A DNA stretch of 5,760 nucleotides from a virus. The stretch lies in IMG/VR virus record IMGVR_UViG_3300045988_116360, positions 1 to 5,760 of that record, one strand, 5' to 3'. Numbering within the stretch: the first letter of the stretch is position 1; the number at the start of each line of letters is the position of its first letter. The notes beneath the pieces are model-generated. The model did not search any database. It was not told where the DNA came from and worked only from the letters and a program-made list of their open reading frames with translations. Both the position numbers and the translations under genes were made by a program. This document shows, in pieces, positions 1-5,760 of this stretch.

Positions 1-119
1 AGTATTGCGAGGATATTATAACGCAAGGTTTTTGTGTTGTTAATGGGCAAAAATTTAAAATTCCTGATTATTATCTTAAACTTTTTGAACGTAAAAATCC
101 TGTTTGGTGTCAAATTTAT
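1..119. repeat. Terminal direct repeat: 1-119 is identical to 5642-5760. This is the overlap of a circular 5641-bp genome that was linearised with redundancy.
   Basis: Aligned base by base: c111 matches c5752 and t119 matches t5760, an offset of exactly 5641. The reading frame of the Rep ORF continues across the junction. Confidence 0.95.
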
Positions 120-292: not shown

Positions 293-311
293 AGAAAGTG
301 AGGTAATGATT

Positions 312-671
312 ATGTTAAAAGATTATTTTGATTCTGCTATTTCTCCCGAACGTCTTAAGGTTGTTCATAATCTGCTTGATAGAGTTCCGCGTTGGCAGAT
401 TTTTGATTCTTATGGTCAAGCGCGTTCTTATCGTGCTCTGAATGACTTTAAACGCGAGGATACTGGTTATGATTATTCTATCTTTTTGTATGACGGTTTT
501 TACTATGTTATCCCTAAGGAGTATCGCCGCACTATTATTAATGAGATTGCTTTTGCTCGTCGCTCTGATGATTTTGATGATTTTTACGCTAGATTTGATA
601 AGCTTTACAGTATGAATTTGCATTCTTACTTTATCTCTAATCCTGCTGACCGTCTTATTCCTGTTAAATAG
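312..671 (+). CDS. Hypothetical 119-aa protein with no recognisable family. It is the cargo of an autonomous promoter-ORF-terminator cassette (moron-like) between Rep and VP5. About 19% of residues are aromatic and Asp/Arg are abundant.
   Basis: ATG 312 follows a GAGGT RBS (300-304) by 7 nt. T-rich third-position codon usage matches the other phage genes. The track start at 255 (TTG) is actually the promoter -35 region. ATG 306 is in frame but too close to the RBS. Confidence 0.7.
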   Translation: MLKDYFDSAISPERLKVVHNLLDRVPRWQIFDSYGQARSYRALNDFKREDTGYDYSIFLYDGFYYVIPKEYRRTIINEIAFARRSDDFDDFYARFDKLYSMNLHSYFISNPADRLIPVK

Positions 672-1066: not shown

Positions 1067-1104
1067 AAGGCTTTGCACGTTATGTGTGAGGCCTTTTTTG
1101 TTTT
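1067..1104 (+). terminator. Possible leaky terminator or attenuator in the VP3 leader. An imperfect 13-bp RNA hairpin (1067-1095, with G.U pairs) is followed by TTTTTTGTTTT (1094-1104).
   Basis: aaggctttgcacg tta tgtgtgaggcctt followed by ttttttgtttt. It lies downstream of both candidate promoters. Together with the promoter at 1003-1031 it would define a ~65-nt transcript. Confidence 0.35.
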
Positions 1105-1857: not shown

Positions 1858-1954
1858 TTTCCATTAAAATTTATTAAGTTGAGATTTCTAGTAAATAGTT
1901 ACGCATCTGCGGCTATTTACCCGTTTATTTATTTTTAAAAGTGAGGTGTTTTAT

Positions 1955-3712
1955 ATGGCCAAAAATATACGCGTCAATCAAAGTCATTTCGCGCTTTTGC
2001 CGCAGGCTAATATCAAGCGCTCGGTATTTGACCGTTCATTCGTCTATAAAACGACTTTTGACGAAGGTAAGTTAATTCCCTACTTTGTCGATGAAGTTTT
2101 GCCCGGCGATACTTTTACATTGAATCCGGTCGAGTTTTGTCGTTTGTCTACGCCGGTAGTGCCATTTATGGATAATTTGTATATTGAATCATTTTTCTTC
2201 TTTGTCCCTTGTCGTCTTGTATGGGACAACTGGGTACGAATGTGTGGCGAACAAGAAAATCCCGAGGACAGCACAGATTTTATTGTTCCGACAATTTCTT
2301 ATGACGGTAACACTCCTGCTTCTCTTTTTGATTATTTTGGCCTTGGTTCTAAGAGCTTCGGTTCTGCTGCTGTTTCTCAGATGAATGTTAATGCTCTTCC
2401 ATTTCGCGCTTATTGGCTCGTTTGGAATGAGTGGTTTCGTGACGAAAATCTGCAGAAGTCTGTTAAAGTTTCTAAAGGTGATACTAACTCGGTCGTTGAA
2501 GCTATGGGTAGCGGCACTGTTAACCCTAATTACGGTTTTCCTGACGGCGTTACTCGTTGGTATCAATGTGCTCCGCGTGGTAAACGCCACGATTATTTCA
2601 CATCCTGCTTGCCTTGGCCGCAAAAAGGCCCAGCCGTTGATTTGCCATTAGGGCAAACTGCTGATATTGTCTCGACTGGCGAGCCTTTTACTTTGAAATG
2701 GTCTGGTGGTCAACAGGATATTCATGGCGGGGGTGCTCATTACGTTTGGTCTTCTTCTGAGGATACATATCTTACTCCATCTTATTACAAAACTGTTGCT
2801 AATCAGCCTTCTAGTGCTTCTCCTCCTTCTACTGCTGTTACTGATTCTTTAACTTCTTCAACTGGTTCTCGTACTAATGGTTCTGATGTCACTTATAAGT
2901 CTAATGTAGCTTCCTTCGGTTCCGTAACTGGTTTGCAGGCTAATCTTTCTTCTGCTACATCTATAACTATTAACTCTCTGCGTCAAGCCTTTATGCTCCA
3001 GCGTTATTACGAGATTGATGCGCGCGGCGGTACCCGTTATACGGAAAAATTGCAGGCTCACTTTGGCGTAACTAATCCTGATGCACGTTTGCAGCGTCCT
3101 GAGTTCTTAGGCTCTCACAGCGCTATGATGAGCATTAATCCTATTGCTCAGACTTCTAGCACTAACGATACTAGTCCGCAAGGCAACTTGGCTGCCTATG
3201 GCGTTCATGGTCAGCGTTATCATGCTTTCACAAAATCCTTTAGCGAATTTGGTTACGTTATTGGCTTAATTAACGTTCGTGCTGACCTTACGTATCAGCA
3301 AGGCATACATCGTATGTGGACGCGTTCTGACATGTTTGACTTCTATTGGCCATCCTTTGCCCATCTTGGAGAGCAGGTTGTACTTAATAAAGAGATTTAC
3401 GCTCAGGGTACTGCTGATGATGACAAAGTTTTTGGCTATCAGGAGCGTTATGCTGAGTATCGTTATAAGCCGTCTCTGATTACTGGTCAGTTCCGTAGCA
3501 CTTATAAAGAGACTTTGGATGTTTGGCACTTAAGCCAAAAATTTGATTCTTTGCCCACTTTATCTGACCAATTTATTCAAGACCATCCGCCTATCAGTCG
3601 TGTCGTTGCTGTTCCGACTTATCCGCATTTTCTCTTAGATGTTAAGTTTAATTTAAAATGTATCAGGCCTATGCCCATGTTTGGCACGCCCGGTATGATG
3701 GGTCATTTTTGA
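1955..3712 (+). CDS. VP1: Major capsid protein (gokushovirus VP1 / phiX F-like jelly-roll), 585 aa from ATG 1955. An in-frame GTG at 1946 would give 588 aa. It contains a Ser/Thr-rich low-complexity insertion at about nt 2746-2985.
   Basis: GAGGTG RBS (1943-1948) lies 6 nt before ATG 1955. The size and conserved block INSLRQAFMLQRYYEIDARGGTRYTEKLQAHFGV are typical of microvirus major capsid proteins. This is the largest ORF, as expected for VP1. Confidence 0.93.
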   Translation: MAKNIRVNQSHFALLPQANIKRSVFDRSFVYKTTFDEGKLIPYFVDEVLPGDTFTLNPVEFCRLSTPVVPFMDNLYIESFFFFVPCRLVWDNWVRMCGEQENPEDSTDFIVPTISYDGNTPASLFDYFGLGSKSFGSAAVSQMNVNALPFRAYWLVWNEWFRDENLQKSVKVSKGDTNSVVEAMGSGTVNPNYGFPDGVTRWYQCAPRGKRHDYFTSCLPWPQKGPAVDLPLGQTADIVSTGEPFTLKWSGGQQDIHGGGAHYVWSSSEDTYLTPSYYKTVANQPSSASPPSTAVTDSLTSSTGSRTNGSDVTYKSNVASFGSVTGLQANLSSATSITINSLRQAFMLQRYYEIDARGGTRYTEKLQAHFGVTNPDARLQRPEFLGSHSAMMSINPIAQTSSTNDTSPQGNLAAYGVHGQRYHAFTKSFSEFGYVIGLINVRADLTYQQGIHRMWTRSDMFDFYWPSFAHLGEQVVLNKEIYAQGTADDDKVFGYQERYAEYRYKPSLITGQFRSTYKETLDVWHLSQKFDSLPTLSDQFIQDHPPISRVVAVPTYPHFLLDVKFNLKCIRPMPMFGTPGMMGHF

Positions 3713-3727
3713 GCGAGGTGATTTTTT

Positions 3728-4504
3728 ATGGGACTTGGTTGGCTTGGTTCTGCCGTTGGCGGTCTCATTGGCGGCTCACTCTCTAATTCCGCATCTCGTC
3801 ATGCGATGGATAGTCAGATTGCTACTAATCGTTATGATTATCAGCATCGTTATCAATGGGCGATGCAGGATATGCAAAAAGCTGGCCTTAATCCTATTCT
3901 TGCAGCTACGCAAGGTATTGCCGGCACTGTTAATGGTGCTTCCGCCCTCGGCGCGTCTTATAATTCTATTGGCGGCGATTTAGCTGCAGGAGCTGGAGCT
4001 GATGCGGCTTCTAATTCTGCTAAAGCGCAGCAAAAGCACGCTGATGTAGCTGATAAATTGTCCTTTGGCCAAATAAAGCAGATGGATAGTCAAATTGCTC
4101 TTAATGCTTCATCTGCTAAAAAGCTTGATGAGGACACATTAAGTACTCATTTGGCTAATCGTCTTTTTAACGATAGTTATAATTATCAGCTCGATATTTA
4201 CCGGCAAAATCTTGAGAATTCTAAAAAGCAAGGCGCTTATATTGATTCGCAGATTGCTAATAATCAGTTTATGCGTGATGTTGTAATGCCTGCTCAGGCT
4301 TTTAGCTACACTGCCCAAGGCAATGCTTCCAATTCTGCCGCTGATTATAACGGTAAATTAGGTCTTTTGGCTGATAGAGATTATGAGTACAAAGGTTATA
4401 GAAATAAGGATTATGGTACTTATGGTAACGCTGATGATGGCGGTTTATTTTCTACTCTTGGCCGTTATGGCTCGCGTTTGGTCAATAGTATTTTTGGTAA
4501 TTAA
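3728..4504 (+). CDS. VP2: Minor capsid / DNA pilot protein (gokushovirus VP2, phiX H analogue), 258 aa. The N-terminus is Gly-rich and there are three internal [MI]DSQIAxN repeats.
   Basis: GAGGTG RBS (3715-3720) lies 7 nt before ATG 3728. MGLGWLGSAVGGLIGG and the motif QKAGLNPILAA resemble remembered VP2/H pilot proteins. The position directly after VP1 fits. Confidence 0.8.
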   Translation: MGLGWLGSAVGGLIGGSLSNSASRHAMDSQIATNRYDYQHRYQWAMQDMQKAGLNPILAATQGIAGTVNGASALGASYNSIGGDLAAGAGADAASNSAKAQQKHADVADKLSFGQIKQMDSQIALNASSAKKLDEDTLSTHLANRLFNDSYNYQLDIYRQNLENSKKQGAYIDSQIANNQFMRDVVMPAQAFSYTAQGNASNSAADYNGKLGLLADRDYEYKGYRNKDYGTYGNADDGGLFSTLGRYGSRLVNSIFGN

Positions 4505-4519
4505 TAAGGAGTTGATTTT

Positions 4520-4783
4520 ATGTCTAACAAAACTACTGCTATTCTTACTTTCCTCGTCTCTACTGTTATCCCTTTTATCCAAGAGGTAGTCGATTTTATT
4601 TCTATGTTTCGGACTGGGACTTATGACAAATCAGGCTCGGATAGCTTGCGCTCTATCAGCCTTGCTATGCAAGACGACCTTGTCAATATGCAAAAAAGAG
4701 AGGTAAAAACTGAAGATTCCTTTCGCTCCGTTGCAAGTACGGAAGAAAAACCATACTCCAGATTTTTGGGAAAAACTCATTAA
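4520..4783 (+). CDS. Hypothetical 87-aa protein with a single N-terminal transmembrane helix (TTAILTFLVSTVIPFI, with an internal Pro) and a hydrophilic, acidic C-terminal domain. Candidate membrane, lysis or exclusion protein.
   Basis: Strong AAGGAG RBS (4506-4511) lies 8 nt before ATG 4520. Codon usage matches the phage. Without it there would be a 318-nt non-coding gap in an otherwise compact genome. Confidence 0.55.
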   Translation: MSNKTTAILTFLVSTVIPFIQEVVDFISMFRTGTYDKSGSDSLRSISLAMQDDLVNMQKREVKTEDSFRSVASTEEKPYSRFLGKTH

Positions 4784-4822: not shown

Positions 4823-4936
4823 ATGAAACGTCGACCTATCAGCCGTGGAAAGAGTAAGCGTAATTTTCGCAATCATTCTATTCCGCGTCCAGCAAATCTC
4901 AAAGCCCGCAATATGCGTGGCGGCATTAGAATGTAA
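4823..4936 (+). CDS. VP8: Small, highly basic (13 of 37 residues are Arg/Lys) DNA-binding/packaging protein. Analogue of gokushovirus VP8 or phiX J.
   Basis: TAGGAGGT RBS (4808-4815) lies 7 nt before ATG 4823. It translates to MKRRPISRGKSKRNFRNHSIPRPANLKARNMRGGIRM. The ORF track missed it because it is short. Confidence 0.6.
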   Translation: MKRRPISRGKSKRNFRNHSIPRPANLKARNMRGGIRM

Positions 4937-4950
4937 AGGAACGTGATAAC

Positions 4951-5760
4951 ATGACTTGCCTACATCCGTTGTTGGCGTCTCCATACGCTCTGCCTAACGA
5001 AAATGGCAAAATAGAGTACAAAGTATGGGGCGCAGTAGAAAAATTCGATACAGAGACTCTGAGGCGCTTTAAAACGGGTTTTCACGCTATTCCTATTCCT
5101 TGCGGTCAGTGTCTTGGCTGTCGCTTGGATAAAGCTAACGAATGGGCTATCCGCTGCGTTCATGAGGCTAAGCTGTATCGCCGTAACTGTTTTATTACTC
5201 TCACTTACAATGATGATAATTTACCAGATGACAATTCCCTTCATCGGGAGCATCTGCAGCTTTTTTTGAAAAGATTGCGCAGGAATTTAGATTATGTTAA
5301 AAGTATCAAAATACGTTTTTTGGCTTGCGGTGAGTACGGGTCTCTTAATATGCGCCCTCATTATCATATACTTGTTTTCGGTTGGTTTCCTTCTGATGTT
5401 CGCAAGCTCTCGGCGCTAACTAGTGGCTATAACCTCTTTCGTTCTCCTCTGCTTGAGAGACTTTGGCCGTATGGCTTTAATACTGTTGGAGCTGTAACTT
5501 TTGAGAGTGCGCGATATGTTGCTAAGTATAGCCTCAAAAAGCAGACTGGTCAAAATGCTGCTATGTACGACCTTCTCGGGATTAAGCCTGAGTTTGTCAG
5601 CTGTTCTCTTAAGCCCGGTATTGGAGCTGATTTTTTTAATCAGTATTGCGAGGATATTATAACGCAAGGTTTTTGTGTTGTTAATGGGCAAAAATTTAAA
5701 ATTCCTGATTATTATCTTAAACTTTTTGAACGTAAAAATCCTGTTTGGTGTCAAATTTAT
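4951..5760 (+). CDS. VP4: Replication initiation protein VP4 (HUH rolling-circle endonuclease), N-terminal 270 codons. The ORF is open to the window end and continues at 1..239. RCR motifs: CFITLTY (motif 1), PHYHILVF (HxH motif 2) and ARYVAKY (catalytic Tyr motif 3, identical to the phiX gpA YVAKY).
   Basis: AAGGAA (4936-4941) precedes ATG 4951. It translates to MTCLHPLL...IPCGQCLGCRL...GEYGSLNMRPHYHILVFGWF...ARYVAKYSLKKQ with no stop up to 5760. The ORF track missed it because no stop lies inside the window. Confidence 0.92.
   Translation, partial: MTCLHPLLASPYALPNENGKIEYKVWGAVEKFDTETLRRFKTGFHAIPIPCGQCLGCRLDKANEWAIRCVHEAKLYRRNCFITLTYNDDNLPDDNSLHREHLQLFLKRLRRNLDYVKSIKIRFLACGEYGSLNMRPHYHILVFGWFPSDVRKLSALTSGYNLFRSPLLERLWPYGFNTVGAVTFESARYVAKYSLKKQTGQNAAMYDLLGIKPEFVSCSLKPGIGADFFNQYCEDIITQGFCVVNGQKFKIPDYYLKLFERKNPVWCQIY

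What the first reader, a model, noticed from the sequence alone, without database searches (positions are those of the whole stretch)
4520..4783. 87-aa ORF with an N-terminal Pro-containing transmembrane helix after VP2: candidate single-gene lysis (E-like) or membrane-anchored exclusion protein
Gokushovirinae have no characterised lysis gene, and phiX E homologues are not found in them. This ORF has a strong RBS and phage-like codon usage. Its architecture (short N-terminus, one transmembrane helix AILTFLVSTVIPFI containing a proline, about 65 hydrophilic C-terminal residues) mirrors small phage amurins such as phiX174 E (91 aa, one N-terminal TMD with an essential Pro21). It is not one of the conserved VP1-VP5/VP8 genes.
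Basis: inference. Interest (0 to 1): 0.62.

Follow-up and report, generated by a model that had tools for sequence, protein, structure and literature searches.

The report
Conserved small gokushovirus accessory protein
The 87-codon ORF after VP2 is a real, strongly conserved accessory gene of one clade of gut gokushoviruses, encoding a small protein with a hydrophobic N-terminal helix; it may be their missing lysis gene, but nothing here shows that.

Summary
Window 4520-4783 is an ATG ORF of 87 codons with an AAGGAG ribosome-binding site, lying between VP2 and a 37-aa VP8/J-like gene in a complete 5,641-nt circular gokushovirus genome.

It is a real gene:
- 89 protein homologues, 241 IMG/VR loci and 20 GenBank microvirus records, always in the same position.
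- dN/dS of 0.04-0.06 over residues 2-31, with synonymous sites near saturation.

The family is phrog_23638 (function unknown). It occurs in about 1% of GenBank gokushovirus-like genomes and is absent from eight close relatives.

Predicted anatomy:
- one long helix (residues 3-32) carrying a 14-15-residue apolar core, an invariant Pro18-Phe19 and an acidic stripe (E22, D25, E/D28);
- a second, variable helix;
- a disordered linker;
- an invariant C-terminal S-R-F motif.

It is not a phiX174 E homologue. Its hydrophobic segment is far weaker than E's, so membrane spanning is plausible but marginal.

The lysis reading is neither shown nor excluded (about 0.3). Rivals are a virion or assembly accessory, an exclusion protein and a non-membrane helix. 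A conserved 41-codon hydrophobic ORF overprinted in VP4 (5294-5419) is a competing lysis candidate.

The parts
4506..4511 (+). Shine-Dalgarno AAGGAG, 8 nt upstream of the ORF87 ATG
   Evidence: Read from the sequence. An SD-like motif lies within 20 nt upstream in 87 of 90 family loci, and it is AAGGAG in 66 of them.
4520..4783 (+). ORF87 coding sequence (87 aa plus stop); member of phrog_23638, function unknown
   Evidence: Whole-gene dN/dS is 0.10-0.31 against the 89-aa clade.
4520..4612 (+). Residues 1-31: the highly conserved N-terminal helix MSNKTTAILTFLVSTVIPFIQEVVDFISMFR. K4, I8, L9, F11, P18, F19, I20 and D25 are invariant in 52 distinct proteins.
   Evidence: AF2 predicts a helix over residues 3-32, with mean pLDDT of 78, 87 and 76 for the three ten-residue blocks 1-30. 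dN/dS is 0.04-0.06. Identity is 97% where VP1 is 69%, and 73-81% where VP1 is 53%.
4538..4579 (+). Residues 7-20: the apolar core AILTFLVSTVIPFI, the putative membrane-inserting segment
   Evidence: Mean Kyte-Doolittle value over 19 residues is 1.78. The Wimley-White octanol 19-mer scores -4.9 kcal/mol. The crude Hessa sum is +0.6 for the 15-mer and +5.0 for the 19-mer.
4628..4705 (+). Residues 37-62: second predicted helix, variable in sequence, with D53 invariant in the 20-sequence alignment A1
   Evidence: dN/dS over residues 32-79 is about 0.4 or higher.
4757..4771 (+). Residues 80-84: C-terminal motif S-R-F-L-G, followed by basic residues. R81 and F82 are invariant in all 88 sequences compared; position 80 is Ser in 99%.
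   Evidence: Ser80 is encoded by 5 different codons, including both AGC and TCC, and Arg81 by 4, which shows selection on the protein rather than on the DNA.
3728..4504 (+). VP2 (DNA pilot protein), the upstream neighbour. Its stop lies 4-15 nt before the ORF87-family start in most genomes.
4823..4936 (+). 37-aa Arg/Lys-rich protein read as VP8/J-like, the downstream neighbour. Its start overlaps the ORF87-family stop by 4 nt in 64 of 90 loci and lies 38-39 nt downstream in this clade.

Best explanation
ORF87 is a real accessory gene of one clade of animal-gut gokushoviruses. It is co-transcribed, and probably translationally coupled, with the late genes VP1-VP2-VP8.

It encodes a small tether-like protein with four parts:
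- an N-terminal helix of about 30 residues whose 14-15-residue apolar core inserts into, or lies in, the host cytoplasmic membrane;
- an acidic amphipathic continuation of that helix;
- a variable helical and disordered spacer;
- an invariant C-terminal S-R-F peptide with basic residues.

My best single guess for its role is a late-acting effector on the cell envelope: a single-gene lysis or egress protein unrelated to phiX174 E. The conserved N-terminal helix would be the active part, acting either by binding a conserved membrane protein of cell-wall synthesis or by self-assembling through its Thr/Ser/Pro/acidic face.

What is shown: gene reality, family, synteny, the conservation pattern and the predicted helices. 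What is inferred: membrane association (about 0.6) and the lysis role (about 0.3).
For: Real gene under purifying selection.
- 89 homologues, 241 IMG/VR loci and 20 GenBank records.
- Over residues 2-31, dN/dS is 0.04-0.06 with dS 0.7-1.5.
- Invariant residues are encoded by 3-5 synonymous codons.

Expression context.
- The order VP2-ORF87-VP8 is fixed, with gaps of 4-15 nt upstream and -4 or 38 nt downstream, and an SD motif in 87 of 90 loci.
- No promoter-like or terminator-like site separates it from its neighbours.

Anatomy.
- AF2 predicts helices at 3-32 and 37-62 and a disordered tail.
- The apolar core passes the Kyte-Doolittle criterion (1.78) and the Wimley-White octanol criterion (-4.9 to -6.6 kcal/mol across the family).
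- T6, T10, S14, P18, Q21, E22, D25 and E/D28 lie on one helical face, with a resultant of 0.70.

Conservation. Residues 1-30 are among the most conserved 30-residue windows of the whole proteome: only 6 of 1311 windows are more conserved against L004, and 38 of 1311 against L003.

Consistent with a lysis role.
- No recognisable lysin, holin or E-like protein is encoded in the genome.
- The literature states that gokushoviruses lack a known lysis gene (PMC7062461, PMC3394797).
- The gene is lineage-specific, as single-gene lysis genes generally are.
Against: - There is no functional data.
- The hydrophobic segment is much weaker than that of E (-4.9 against -17.3 kcal/mol) and is followed by three conserved acidic residues. 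It could instead be an interfacial helix or a protein-protein interface.
- The strong SD and the coupling to structural genes suggest abundant expression, which is unlike known single-gene lysis proteins (my own knowledge).
- Sequence conservation as high as the capsid core, together with a second invariant motif at the C-terminus, is more typical of an assembly or structural partner.
- Close relatives that lack the gene must lyse some other way.
- An overprinted 41-codon ORF with a strong hydrophobic helix is conserved inside VP4 in this clade, and VP4 synonymous diversity is lowest there (pS 0.44 against 0.58). It is an alternative lysis candidate.
Confidence: 0.3

Rival explanations
1. A virion, DNA-delivery or assembly accessory protein. 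In this reading ORF87 is a small partner of the pilot protein VP2 or of the capsid: a 'mini-pilot' made of a hydrophobic N-terminal helix, a helical middle and a C-terminal capsid- or DNA-binding peptide. It would be incorporated into the procapsid, or act as a membrane-proximal assembly factor.
For: - It sits between the pilot gene and the DNA-packaging gene, with gaps of a few nucleotides or an overlapping start and stop.
- It has a strong SD.
- Conservation of residues 1-30 rivals the VP1 core.
- A second invariant motif at the C-terminus, separated by a flexible variable linker, fits a two-interface adaptor.
- Pilot proteins of microviruses also begin with hydrophobic helices (PMC3394797; window VP2 starts MGLGWLGSAVGGLIGG).
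Against: - The gene is absent from about 99% of gokushovirus-like genomes, including 8 close relatives, so it is not needed for the common virion design.
- It shows no co-variation with the hypervariable VP2 C-terminus: the same ORF87 C-terminus occurs with unrelated VP2 ends.
- No similarity to any solved or predicted viral structure was found.
Confidence: 0.25
2. A membrane-anchored host-modulating or superinfection-exclusion protein. It would adopt a type II (N-in, C-out) signal-anchor topology, with the C-terminal part exposed outside the cytoplasmic membrane, where it blocks entry of related phages or alters an envelope process without causing lysis.
For: - Charge distribution favours N-in/C-out by the positive-inside rule (established knowledge): K4 lies before the apolar core, and E22, D25 and E/D28 lie after it.
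- A 14-15-residue apolar core is the length of a Sec signal h-region.
- The gene is accessory and clade-specific.
Against: - There is no match to any PADLOC model, though that library covers bacterial defence systems rather than phage exclusion genes, so the test is weak.
- Exclusion genes are usually early or constitutively expressed and fast-evolving. This gene is embedded in the late cluster, and its N-terminus is nearly invariant.
Confidence: 0.15
3. Not a membrane protein at all. The conserved N-terminal helix would be the buried core of a soluble homo-oligomer, or the binding helix for a viral or host protein such as the replication or packaging machinery.
For: - The apolar run is only 14-15 residues. 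The crude Hessa sum for any 19-mer is +5.0 kcal/mol, against -3.4 for E.
- Near-invariance at every position of the helix is unusual for a simple membrane anchor.
- AF2 models one continuous 30-residue helix that runs through the acidic segment.
Against: - The Kyte-Doolittle and Wimley-White octanol criteria are both met across the family.
- The Thr/Ser-rich apolar helix with an internal Pro is typical of membrane helices (my own knowledge).
- The AF2 model has low overall confidence (pLDDT 65, pTM 0.31).
Confidence: 0.2
4. A chance ORF or non-coding spacer.
For: None, beyond its small size and the lack of annotation in most GenBank records.
Confidence: 0.01

Closest known systems
phiX174 lysis protein E (Bullavirinae; Pfam Microvir_lysis), an inhibitor of MraY
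   Same: A small protein (87 aa against 91 aa) from a microvirus. Both have a single N-terminal hydrophobic helix containing a conserved proline. In both, constraint is concentrated in that helix and the remainder is variable (the properties of E are from my own knowledge).
   Different: - No sequence similarity: no Pfam hit at E<=1.
- ORF87 has its own reading frame rather than being overprinted.
- It has a strong SD.
- Its apolar core is much weaker.
- Acidic rather than basic residues follow the helix, predicting the opposite topology.
- It has an invariant C-terminal S-R-F motif.
phrog_23638 (PHROGs v4; unknown function)
   Same: ORF87 matches it at E 2.9e-12 over residues 1-56. This is the same protein family as the 79-aa 'hypothetical protein' of human gut gokushoviruses, e.g. 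ARQ16029.1 in KX513872.
   Different: The window belongs to a longer (87-89 aa) subgroup with a different middle region. It is about 40% identical overall to the 79-aa subgroup, but 73-81% identical in the first 30 residues.
Single-gene lysis proteins of ssRNA phages (e.g. the 37-aa LysM, an inhibitor of MurJ), and small phage membrane proteins such as Gp1 of the microvirus Ebor
   Same: Small, lineage-specific, single hydrophobic helix, in a very small lytic phage genome with no endolysin (10.1101/2022.01.20.477139, 10.1101/2023.05.22.541694, PMC11980548).
   Different: No homology. Those proteins are generally poorly conserved and often overprinted, whereas ORF87 is free-standing and its helix is as conserved as the capsid core.
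Type IV pilin N-terminal helix (Geobacter PilA-N; 2m7g, 6vk9)
   Same: It was the best PDB sequence match. Both have a long N-terminal hydrophobic helix that continues into an amphipathic helix.
   Different: The match is at chance level (E 0.74), and by inspection of the sequence ORF87 has no prepilin leader, no G|F cleavage site and no Glu at +5. I do not regard it as related.

Membership tests
phiX174 E / Microvir_lysis | Sequence homology to protein E (Pfam model) | tested here: not met
   No Pfam-A hit at E<=1. No PHROG in a lysis category. No PDB sequence hit to E-MraY-SlyD entries.
phiX174 E / Microvir_lysis | Gene overprinted within the scaffolding gene D | tested here: not met
   ORF87 occupies its own space between VP2 and the VP8-like gene.
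phiX174 E / Microvir_lysis | Strongly hydrophobic N-terminal transmembrane domain of about 20 residues with a conserved proline | tested here: inconclusive
   Pro18 is invariant, but the apolar run is only 14-15 residues. Wimley-White octanol score is -4.9 against -17.3 kcal/mol for E.
phiX174 E / Microvir_lysis | Expression causes lysis by inhibiting MraY, with SlyD dependence | not testable with these tools
   Requires expression and genetics.
Single-gene lysis proteins (a functional class, not a homology family) | A small membrane-associated protein that alone is sufficient for lysis | not testable with these tools
   Small size and a hydrophobic helix are met. Sufficiency for lysis is untested.
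Holins | Match to a holin family, and an adjacent endolysin gene | tested here: not met
   No Pfam, PHROG or NCBIfam holin match. No lysin is recognisable among the annotated genes of the genome. The other unknown gene, ORF120, has no family match and only 7 homologues.
phrog_23638 | Profile match above noise | tested here: met
   E 2.9e-12, 47.8 bits, residues 1-56. Confirmed by alignment with the 79-aa proteins.
Gokushovirus core genes VP1-VP5 and VP8 | Homology to one of the core families | tested here: not met
   The core genes are all accounted for elsewhere in the genome, and ORF87 matches none of them.
Anti-phage defence / exclusion systems (PADLOC) | Match to a PADLOC model | tested here: not met
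   0 families at E<=1.
Sec signal peptide (cleaved, secreted protein) | Small residues at -3 and -1, within 3-7 residues after the h-region | tested here: not met
   The sequence after I20 is QEVVDF, conserved across the family, with no A-x-A-like site. This was by inspection only; no predictor was run.

The most novel reading that the evidence does not exclude
ORF87 and its relatives are the first free-standing (not overprinted) single-gene lysis family of the Gokushovirinae. The nearly invariant N-terminal helix (K-T-T-x-I-L-T-F-x-V-S-x-V-x-P-F-I-Q-E-x-V-D) would bind and block a conserved membrane step of cell-wall synthesis in a gut anaerobe host, possibly a Clostridiales bacterium. That would make it a new 'protein antibiotic' with a new target interface.
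Probability: 0.25. Interest if true: 0.75.

Novelty: new member of a known kind. Interest (0 to 1): 0.42.

Why it matters
How gokushoviruses lyse their hosts is unknown, even though they are among the most abundant ssDNA phages in guts and oceans (PMC7062461, PMC3394797).

A small, free-standing gene with a highly constrained membrane-type helix is one of very few testable candidates. This work gives precise targets for such a test: the invariant residues (K4, L9, F11, P18, F19, D25, R81, F82) and a set of natural variants for mutagenesis.

If it is a lysis protein, its conserved helix points to a conserved host target and possibly a new antibacterial mechanism. If it is instead a virion or assembly factor, it would show that some gokushoviruses use an extra structural component next to the pilot protein.

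Either way it is at present an uncharacterised family, with no evidence beyond sequence.

Tried and rejected
1. Homology to E, holins, lysins, defence proteins or any curated family. None was found in Pfam, NCBIfam, PADLOC or the PHROG functional categories.

2. Solved-structure and predicted-structure similarity. The best PDB sequence hit was a type IV pilin helix at E 0.74, which I rejected as chance. Foldseek against BFVD gave nothing below E 2.

3. Fusion to VP2. Three GenBank hits listed 'VP2' under the match, but the overlap is only 8 nt of adjacent genes. In the window, two TAA stops separate the genes.

4. A C-terminal motif shared between VP2 and ORF87. Rejected: VP2 C-termini are hypervariable and unrelated to S-R-F.

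5. A DNA-level constraint explaining the N-terminal conservation. Rejected: synonymous codons turn over freely, and the overlapping alternative-frame ORF 4383-4589 carries stops in relatives.

6. Remote homologues in close non-carrier genomes. An hmmsearch with all filters off over six-frame translations of 8 genomes found nothing below E 2.

7. Host assignment. This was left unresolved.
- The one genome-collection hit is a free phage contig binned with a Clostridiales MAG.
- Two metagenome contigs join phage DNA to bacterial DNA. One joins it to Segatella copri (PanB and MoxR identical). The other has its break inside VP4 with a 62-nt overlap.
- The junctions look like assembly chimeras and disagree with each other.

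8. Literature. Six full-text searches found no paper characterising this ORF or any gokushovirus lysis gene.

Full report
**Context.** The window is a complete circular gokushovirus genome. The first and last 119 nt are identical, so the unit length is 5,641 nt. All genes are on the + strand:
- an unknown gene of about 120 codons (309-671);
- VP5 (712-978, PF20577);
- VP3 (1219-1662, Chlamy_scaf);
- VP1 (1946-3712, Phage_F);
- VP2 (3728-4504, pilot-protein PHROGs);
- the ORF in question (4520-4783);
- a 37-aa Arg/Lys-rich protein read as VP8/J-like (4823-4936, phrog_10695);
- VP4, which runs across the junction (4951 to 239 of the next turn).

At DNA level, the nearest GenBank genomes match only within VP1, at 71-78% identity.

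**Observation.** The ORF is exactly as described: ATG at 4520, 87 codons, with AAGGAG 8 nt upstream. VP2 ends 15 nt before it, with two consecutive TAA codons in the same frame, so read-through fusion is not expected.
- An ATG ORF this long arises in only 8 of 5000 shuffles of the 318-nt interval.
- Its codon usage (CAI 0.59) falls within the range of the core genes (0.58-0.72) and above the other five frames of the same DNA (0.41-0.52).

**It is a real gene.**
- The large protein collection holds 89 homologues. IMG/VR holds 241 loci, of which 80 were fetched. GenBank phages hold 20 records, where the gene is mostly unannotated or labelled 'hypothetical protein'.
- In every genome inspected it lies directly after VP2 and before the small basic protein and VP4.
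- The VP2 stop lies typically 4-15 nt before its start. Its stop overlaps the next start by 4 nt in 64 of 90 loci. An SD motif precedes it in 87 of 90 loci.
- Invariant residues are written with several synonymous codons: L9 with five, P18 with three, V24 with four, S80 with five (including both AGC and TCC), R81 with four.
- Against the 89-aa clade, residues 2-31 have dN/dS of 0.04-0.06 at dS 0.7-1.5. Residues 32-79 have about 0.4.
- The alternative-frame ORF that overlaps its start (4383-4589) is broken by stops in relatives, so the constraint is on this protein.

**Family and distribution.**
- The only library match is phrog_23638, function unknown (E 2.9e-12).
- A profile search of 1.84 billion representative proteins found just 28 clusters. 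Nearly all are 75-100 aa or fragments, and none is fused to a known domain.
- VP1 of the window finds 2,068 gokushovirus-like GenBank records, but ORF87 finds 20, about 1%.
- The eight records closest by VP1 all carry it.
- Eight somewhat more distant genomes do not. In them the VP2-VP4 interval holds only the small basic protein, and an unfiltered profile search of their six-frame translations found nothing.
- It is therefore a clade-specific accessory gene of gokushoviruses of about 5.0-5.6 kb from human, pig, monkey, dog and mink faeces.

**Anatomy.** Four parts can be distinguished.
- *N-terminal helix.* AlphaFold2 on a 20-sequence alignment predicts one continuous helix over residues 3-32. 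Mean pLDDT is 78, 87 and 76 for the three ten-residue blocks 1-30.
- *Second helix and tail.* A second helix spans residues 37-62, followed by a disordered tail. Overall confidence is low (pLDDT 65, pTM 0.31).
- *Invariant residues of the first helix.* In 52 distinct proteins, K4, I8, L9, F11, P18, F19, I20 and D25 are invariant. T5, T6, T10, S14, Q21, E22 and V24 are nearly so.
- *Polar face.* T6, T10, S14, P18, Q21, E22, D25 and position 28 fall on one face of the helix, with a resultant of 0.70. Position 28 is E or D in 50 of 52 proteins; the window's Ser is an exception.
- *Middle.* This part varies in sequence and length.
- *C-terminus.* R81 and F82 are invariant, and position 80 is Ser in 99% of sequences. 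The motif is followed by L/F/I and basic residues.

Residues 1-30 are 97% identical to the 89-aa clade, where VP1 is 69% and VP4 66%. They are 73-81% identical to the 79-aa clade, where VP1 is 53% and VP4 32-38%. Among all 30-residue windows of the proteome, only 6 of 1311 (against L004) and 38 of 1311 (against L003) are more conserved, and all of the top-ranked ones lie in VP1. In two other comparisons, however, the segment ranks mid-table.

**Is the helix transmembrane?**
- The uninterrupted apolar run is residues 7-20, i.e. 14 residues.
- The best 19-mer has a mean Kyte-Doolittle value of 1.78, above the usual 1.6. Its Wimley-White octanol free energy is -4.9 kcal/mol (-4.9 to -6.6 across the family).
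- These are far weaker than phiX174 E (-17.3; sequence from memory) and the overprinted ORF described below (-15.6). A crude position-independent Hessa sum is +5.0, against -3.4 for E.
- I could not run TMHMM, DeepTMHMM or the full delta-G predictor.
- Membrane insertion is therefore plausible but marginal. An interfacial helix or a buried protein interface are real alternatives.
- If it does span the membrane, the positive-inside rule favours N-in/C-out, the opposite of E: K4 lies before the core and three acidic residues lie after it (inference).
- No signal-peptidase site follows the core (inspection).

**Function.** Nothing computational identifies the function. There is no Pfam, NCBIfam, PADLOC, PDB-sequence or BFVD-fold match. 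The best PDB hit, a type IV pilin helix at E 0.74, is at chance level and lacks the pilin processing motif. Six literature searches found no study of this ORF, and confirmed that gokushoviruses are still described as lacking a recognised lysis gene apart from occasional acquired peptidases.

*For the lysis reading:*
- the genome has no lysin, holin or E-like gene;
- the protein is small, with a hydrophobic Pro-containing helix in which the constraint is concentrated, as in E;
- lineage-restricted distribution is typical of single-gene lysis genes.

*Against it:*
- the weak hydrophobic core and acidic flank;
- the strong SD and tight coupling with structural genes;
- capsid-level conservation plus a second invariant motif, which suggests an adaptor with two binding interfaces;
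- relatives without the gene must lyse anyway.

**A rival lysis candidate.**
- ORF 5294-5419 is overprinted in the +1 frame of VP4, across the HUH motif. It encodes a 41-aa peptide with a strong hydrophobic helix and basic ends.
- A same-position ORF of 40-41 codons with a conserved ATG is open in all 89-aa-clade genomes and in L084; a comparable open frame (42 codons from a GTG start) is present in L085. Most other alternative-frame ORFs are broken in relatives.
- VP4 synonymous diversity is lowest in that region (pS 0.44 against 0.58 elsewhere).
- This could be a by-product of T-rich third positions and a conserved VP4 motif. It nevertheless removes the argument that ORF87 is the only possible lysis gene.

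**Host.** Every gene has a good SD sequence, which argues against a Bacteroidota host (my own knowledge of SD usage). One relative is a free phage contig binned with a Clostridiales MAG. Roux et al. suggested Clostridiales hosts for some gut gokushoviruses, based on peptidase phylogeny (PMC3394797). Against this, one metagenome contig joins a VP2/ORF87 fragment to Segatella copri DNA, and another joins a whole genome, broken inside VP4, to other bacterial DNA. These look like assembly chimeras. The host remains open.

**Verdict.** The gene is real and belongs to an uncharacterised, narrowly distributed family.

The architecture loosely resembles E and the gene passes the proposed refutation tests. 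However, it is not an E homologue, its transmembrane character is marginal, and there is no evidence for lysis.

My estimates are: envelope or lysis effector 0.30, virion or assembly accessory 0.25, non-membrane helix 0.20, exclusion or host modulation 0.15. I rate the finding a moderately interesting, directly testable candidate rather than a discovery.

Noticed in passing
window 5294-5419 (+): A 41-codon ORF overprinted in the +1 frame of VP4, across the HUH motif: MLKVSKYVFWLAVSTGLLICALIIIYLFSVGFLLMFASSRR. It is strongly hydrophobic, has basic ends, and has a weak AGGA motif 9 nt upstream. A same-position ORF with a conserved ATG and a basic C-terminus is open in all 89-aa-clade relatives and in L084, with a comparable GTG-started frame in L085. 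VP4 synonymous diversity is lowest there (pS 0.44 against 0.58). It is either a rival lysis or membrane-peptide candidate, or a by-product of T3 codon bias.
   Followed up: partly
window 309-671 (+): An unknown gene of about 120 codons between VP4 and VP5, preceded by a perfect sigma-70 consensus (TTGACA-17-TATAAT with TG, 258-286). It has no family match in any library and only 7 homologues in 5.8 billion proteins; the equivalent position in the 89-aa clade is about 27% identical. It is a fast-evolving accessory gene with very T-rich third codon positions (T3 = 0.68).
   Followed up: partly
window 1-119 and 5642-5760: An exact 119-nt terminal direct repeat. The contig is a circular genome of 5,641 nt, and VP4 spans the junction.
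   Followed up: yes
L092 1-9878 (ENA contig) and L093 1-8064: Phage DNA joined to bacterial DNA. L092 joins the VP2 3' end and the first 48 or so codons of an ORF87 homologue to the Segatella copri chromosome (PanB and MoxR identical). L093 joins a full phage genome, broken inside VP4 with a 62-nt overlap, to genes including UDP-galactopyranose mutase. These are probably assembly chimeras, but integration is not excluded.
   Followed up: partly
L095 2299-2397 and L096 4403-4501 (PV067910, KX513869): In two close relatives that lack ORF87, a conserved 32-aa amphipathic cationic peptide ORF (MIDTI[LV]KFVNVLLNSGSAIWEAFKAVKKLFKK) overlaps the VP2 stop at the same locus. It has no significant similarity to ORF87 (E 6.5). 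It is unannotated in both records.
   Followed up: no
window 1067-1095 (+): A strong terminator-like hairpin (13-bp stem followed by a T-run) between VP5 and VP3, with two promoter-like sites just upstream of it (961-989 and 1003-1031). This suggests a transcription-unit boundary before the late genes.
   Followed up: no
VP2 C-termini in L001, L013, L015, L018, L019, L025, L086: The last 30 or so residues of VP2 are unrelated between genomes that share nearly identical ORF87 N- and C-termini. This suggests recombination or hypervariability ending exactly at the VP2/ORF87 boundary.
   Followed up: no
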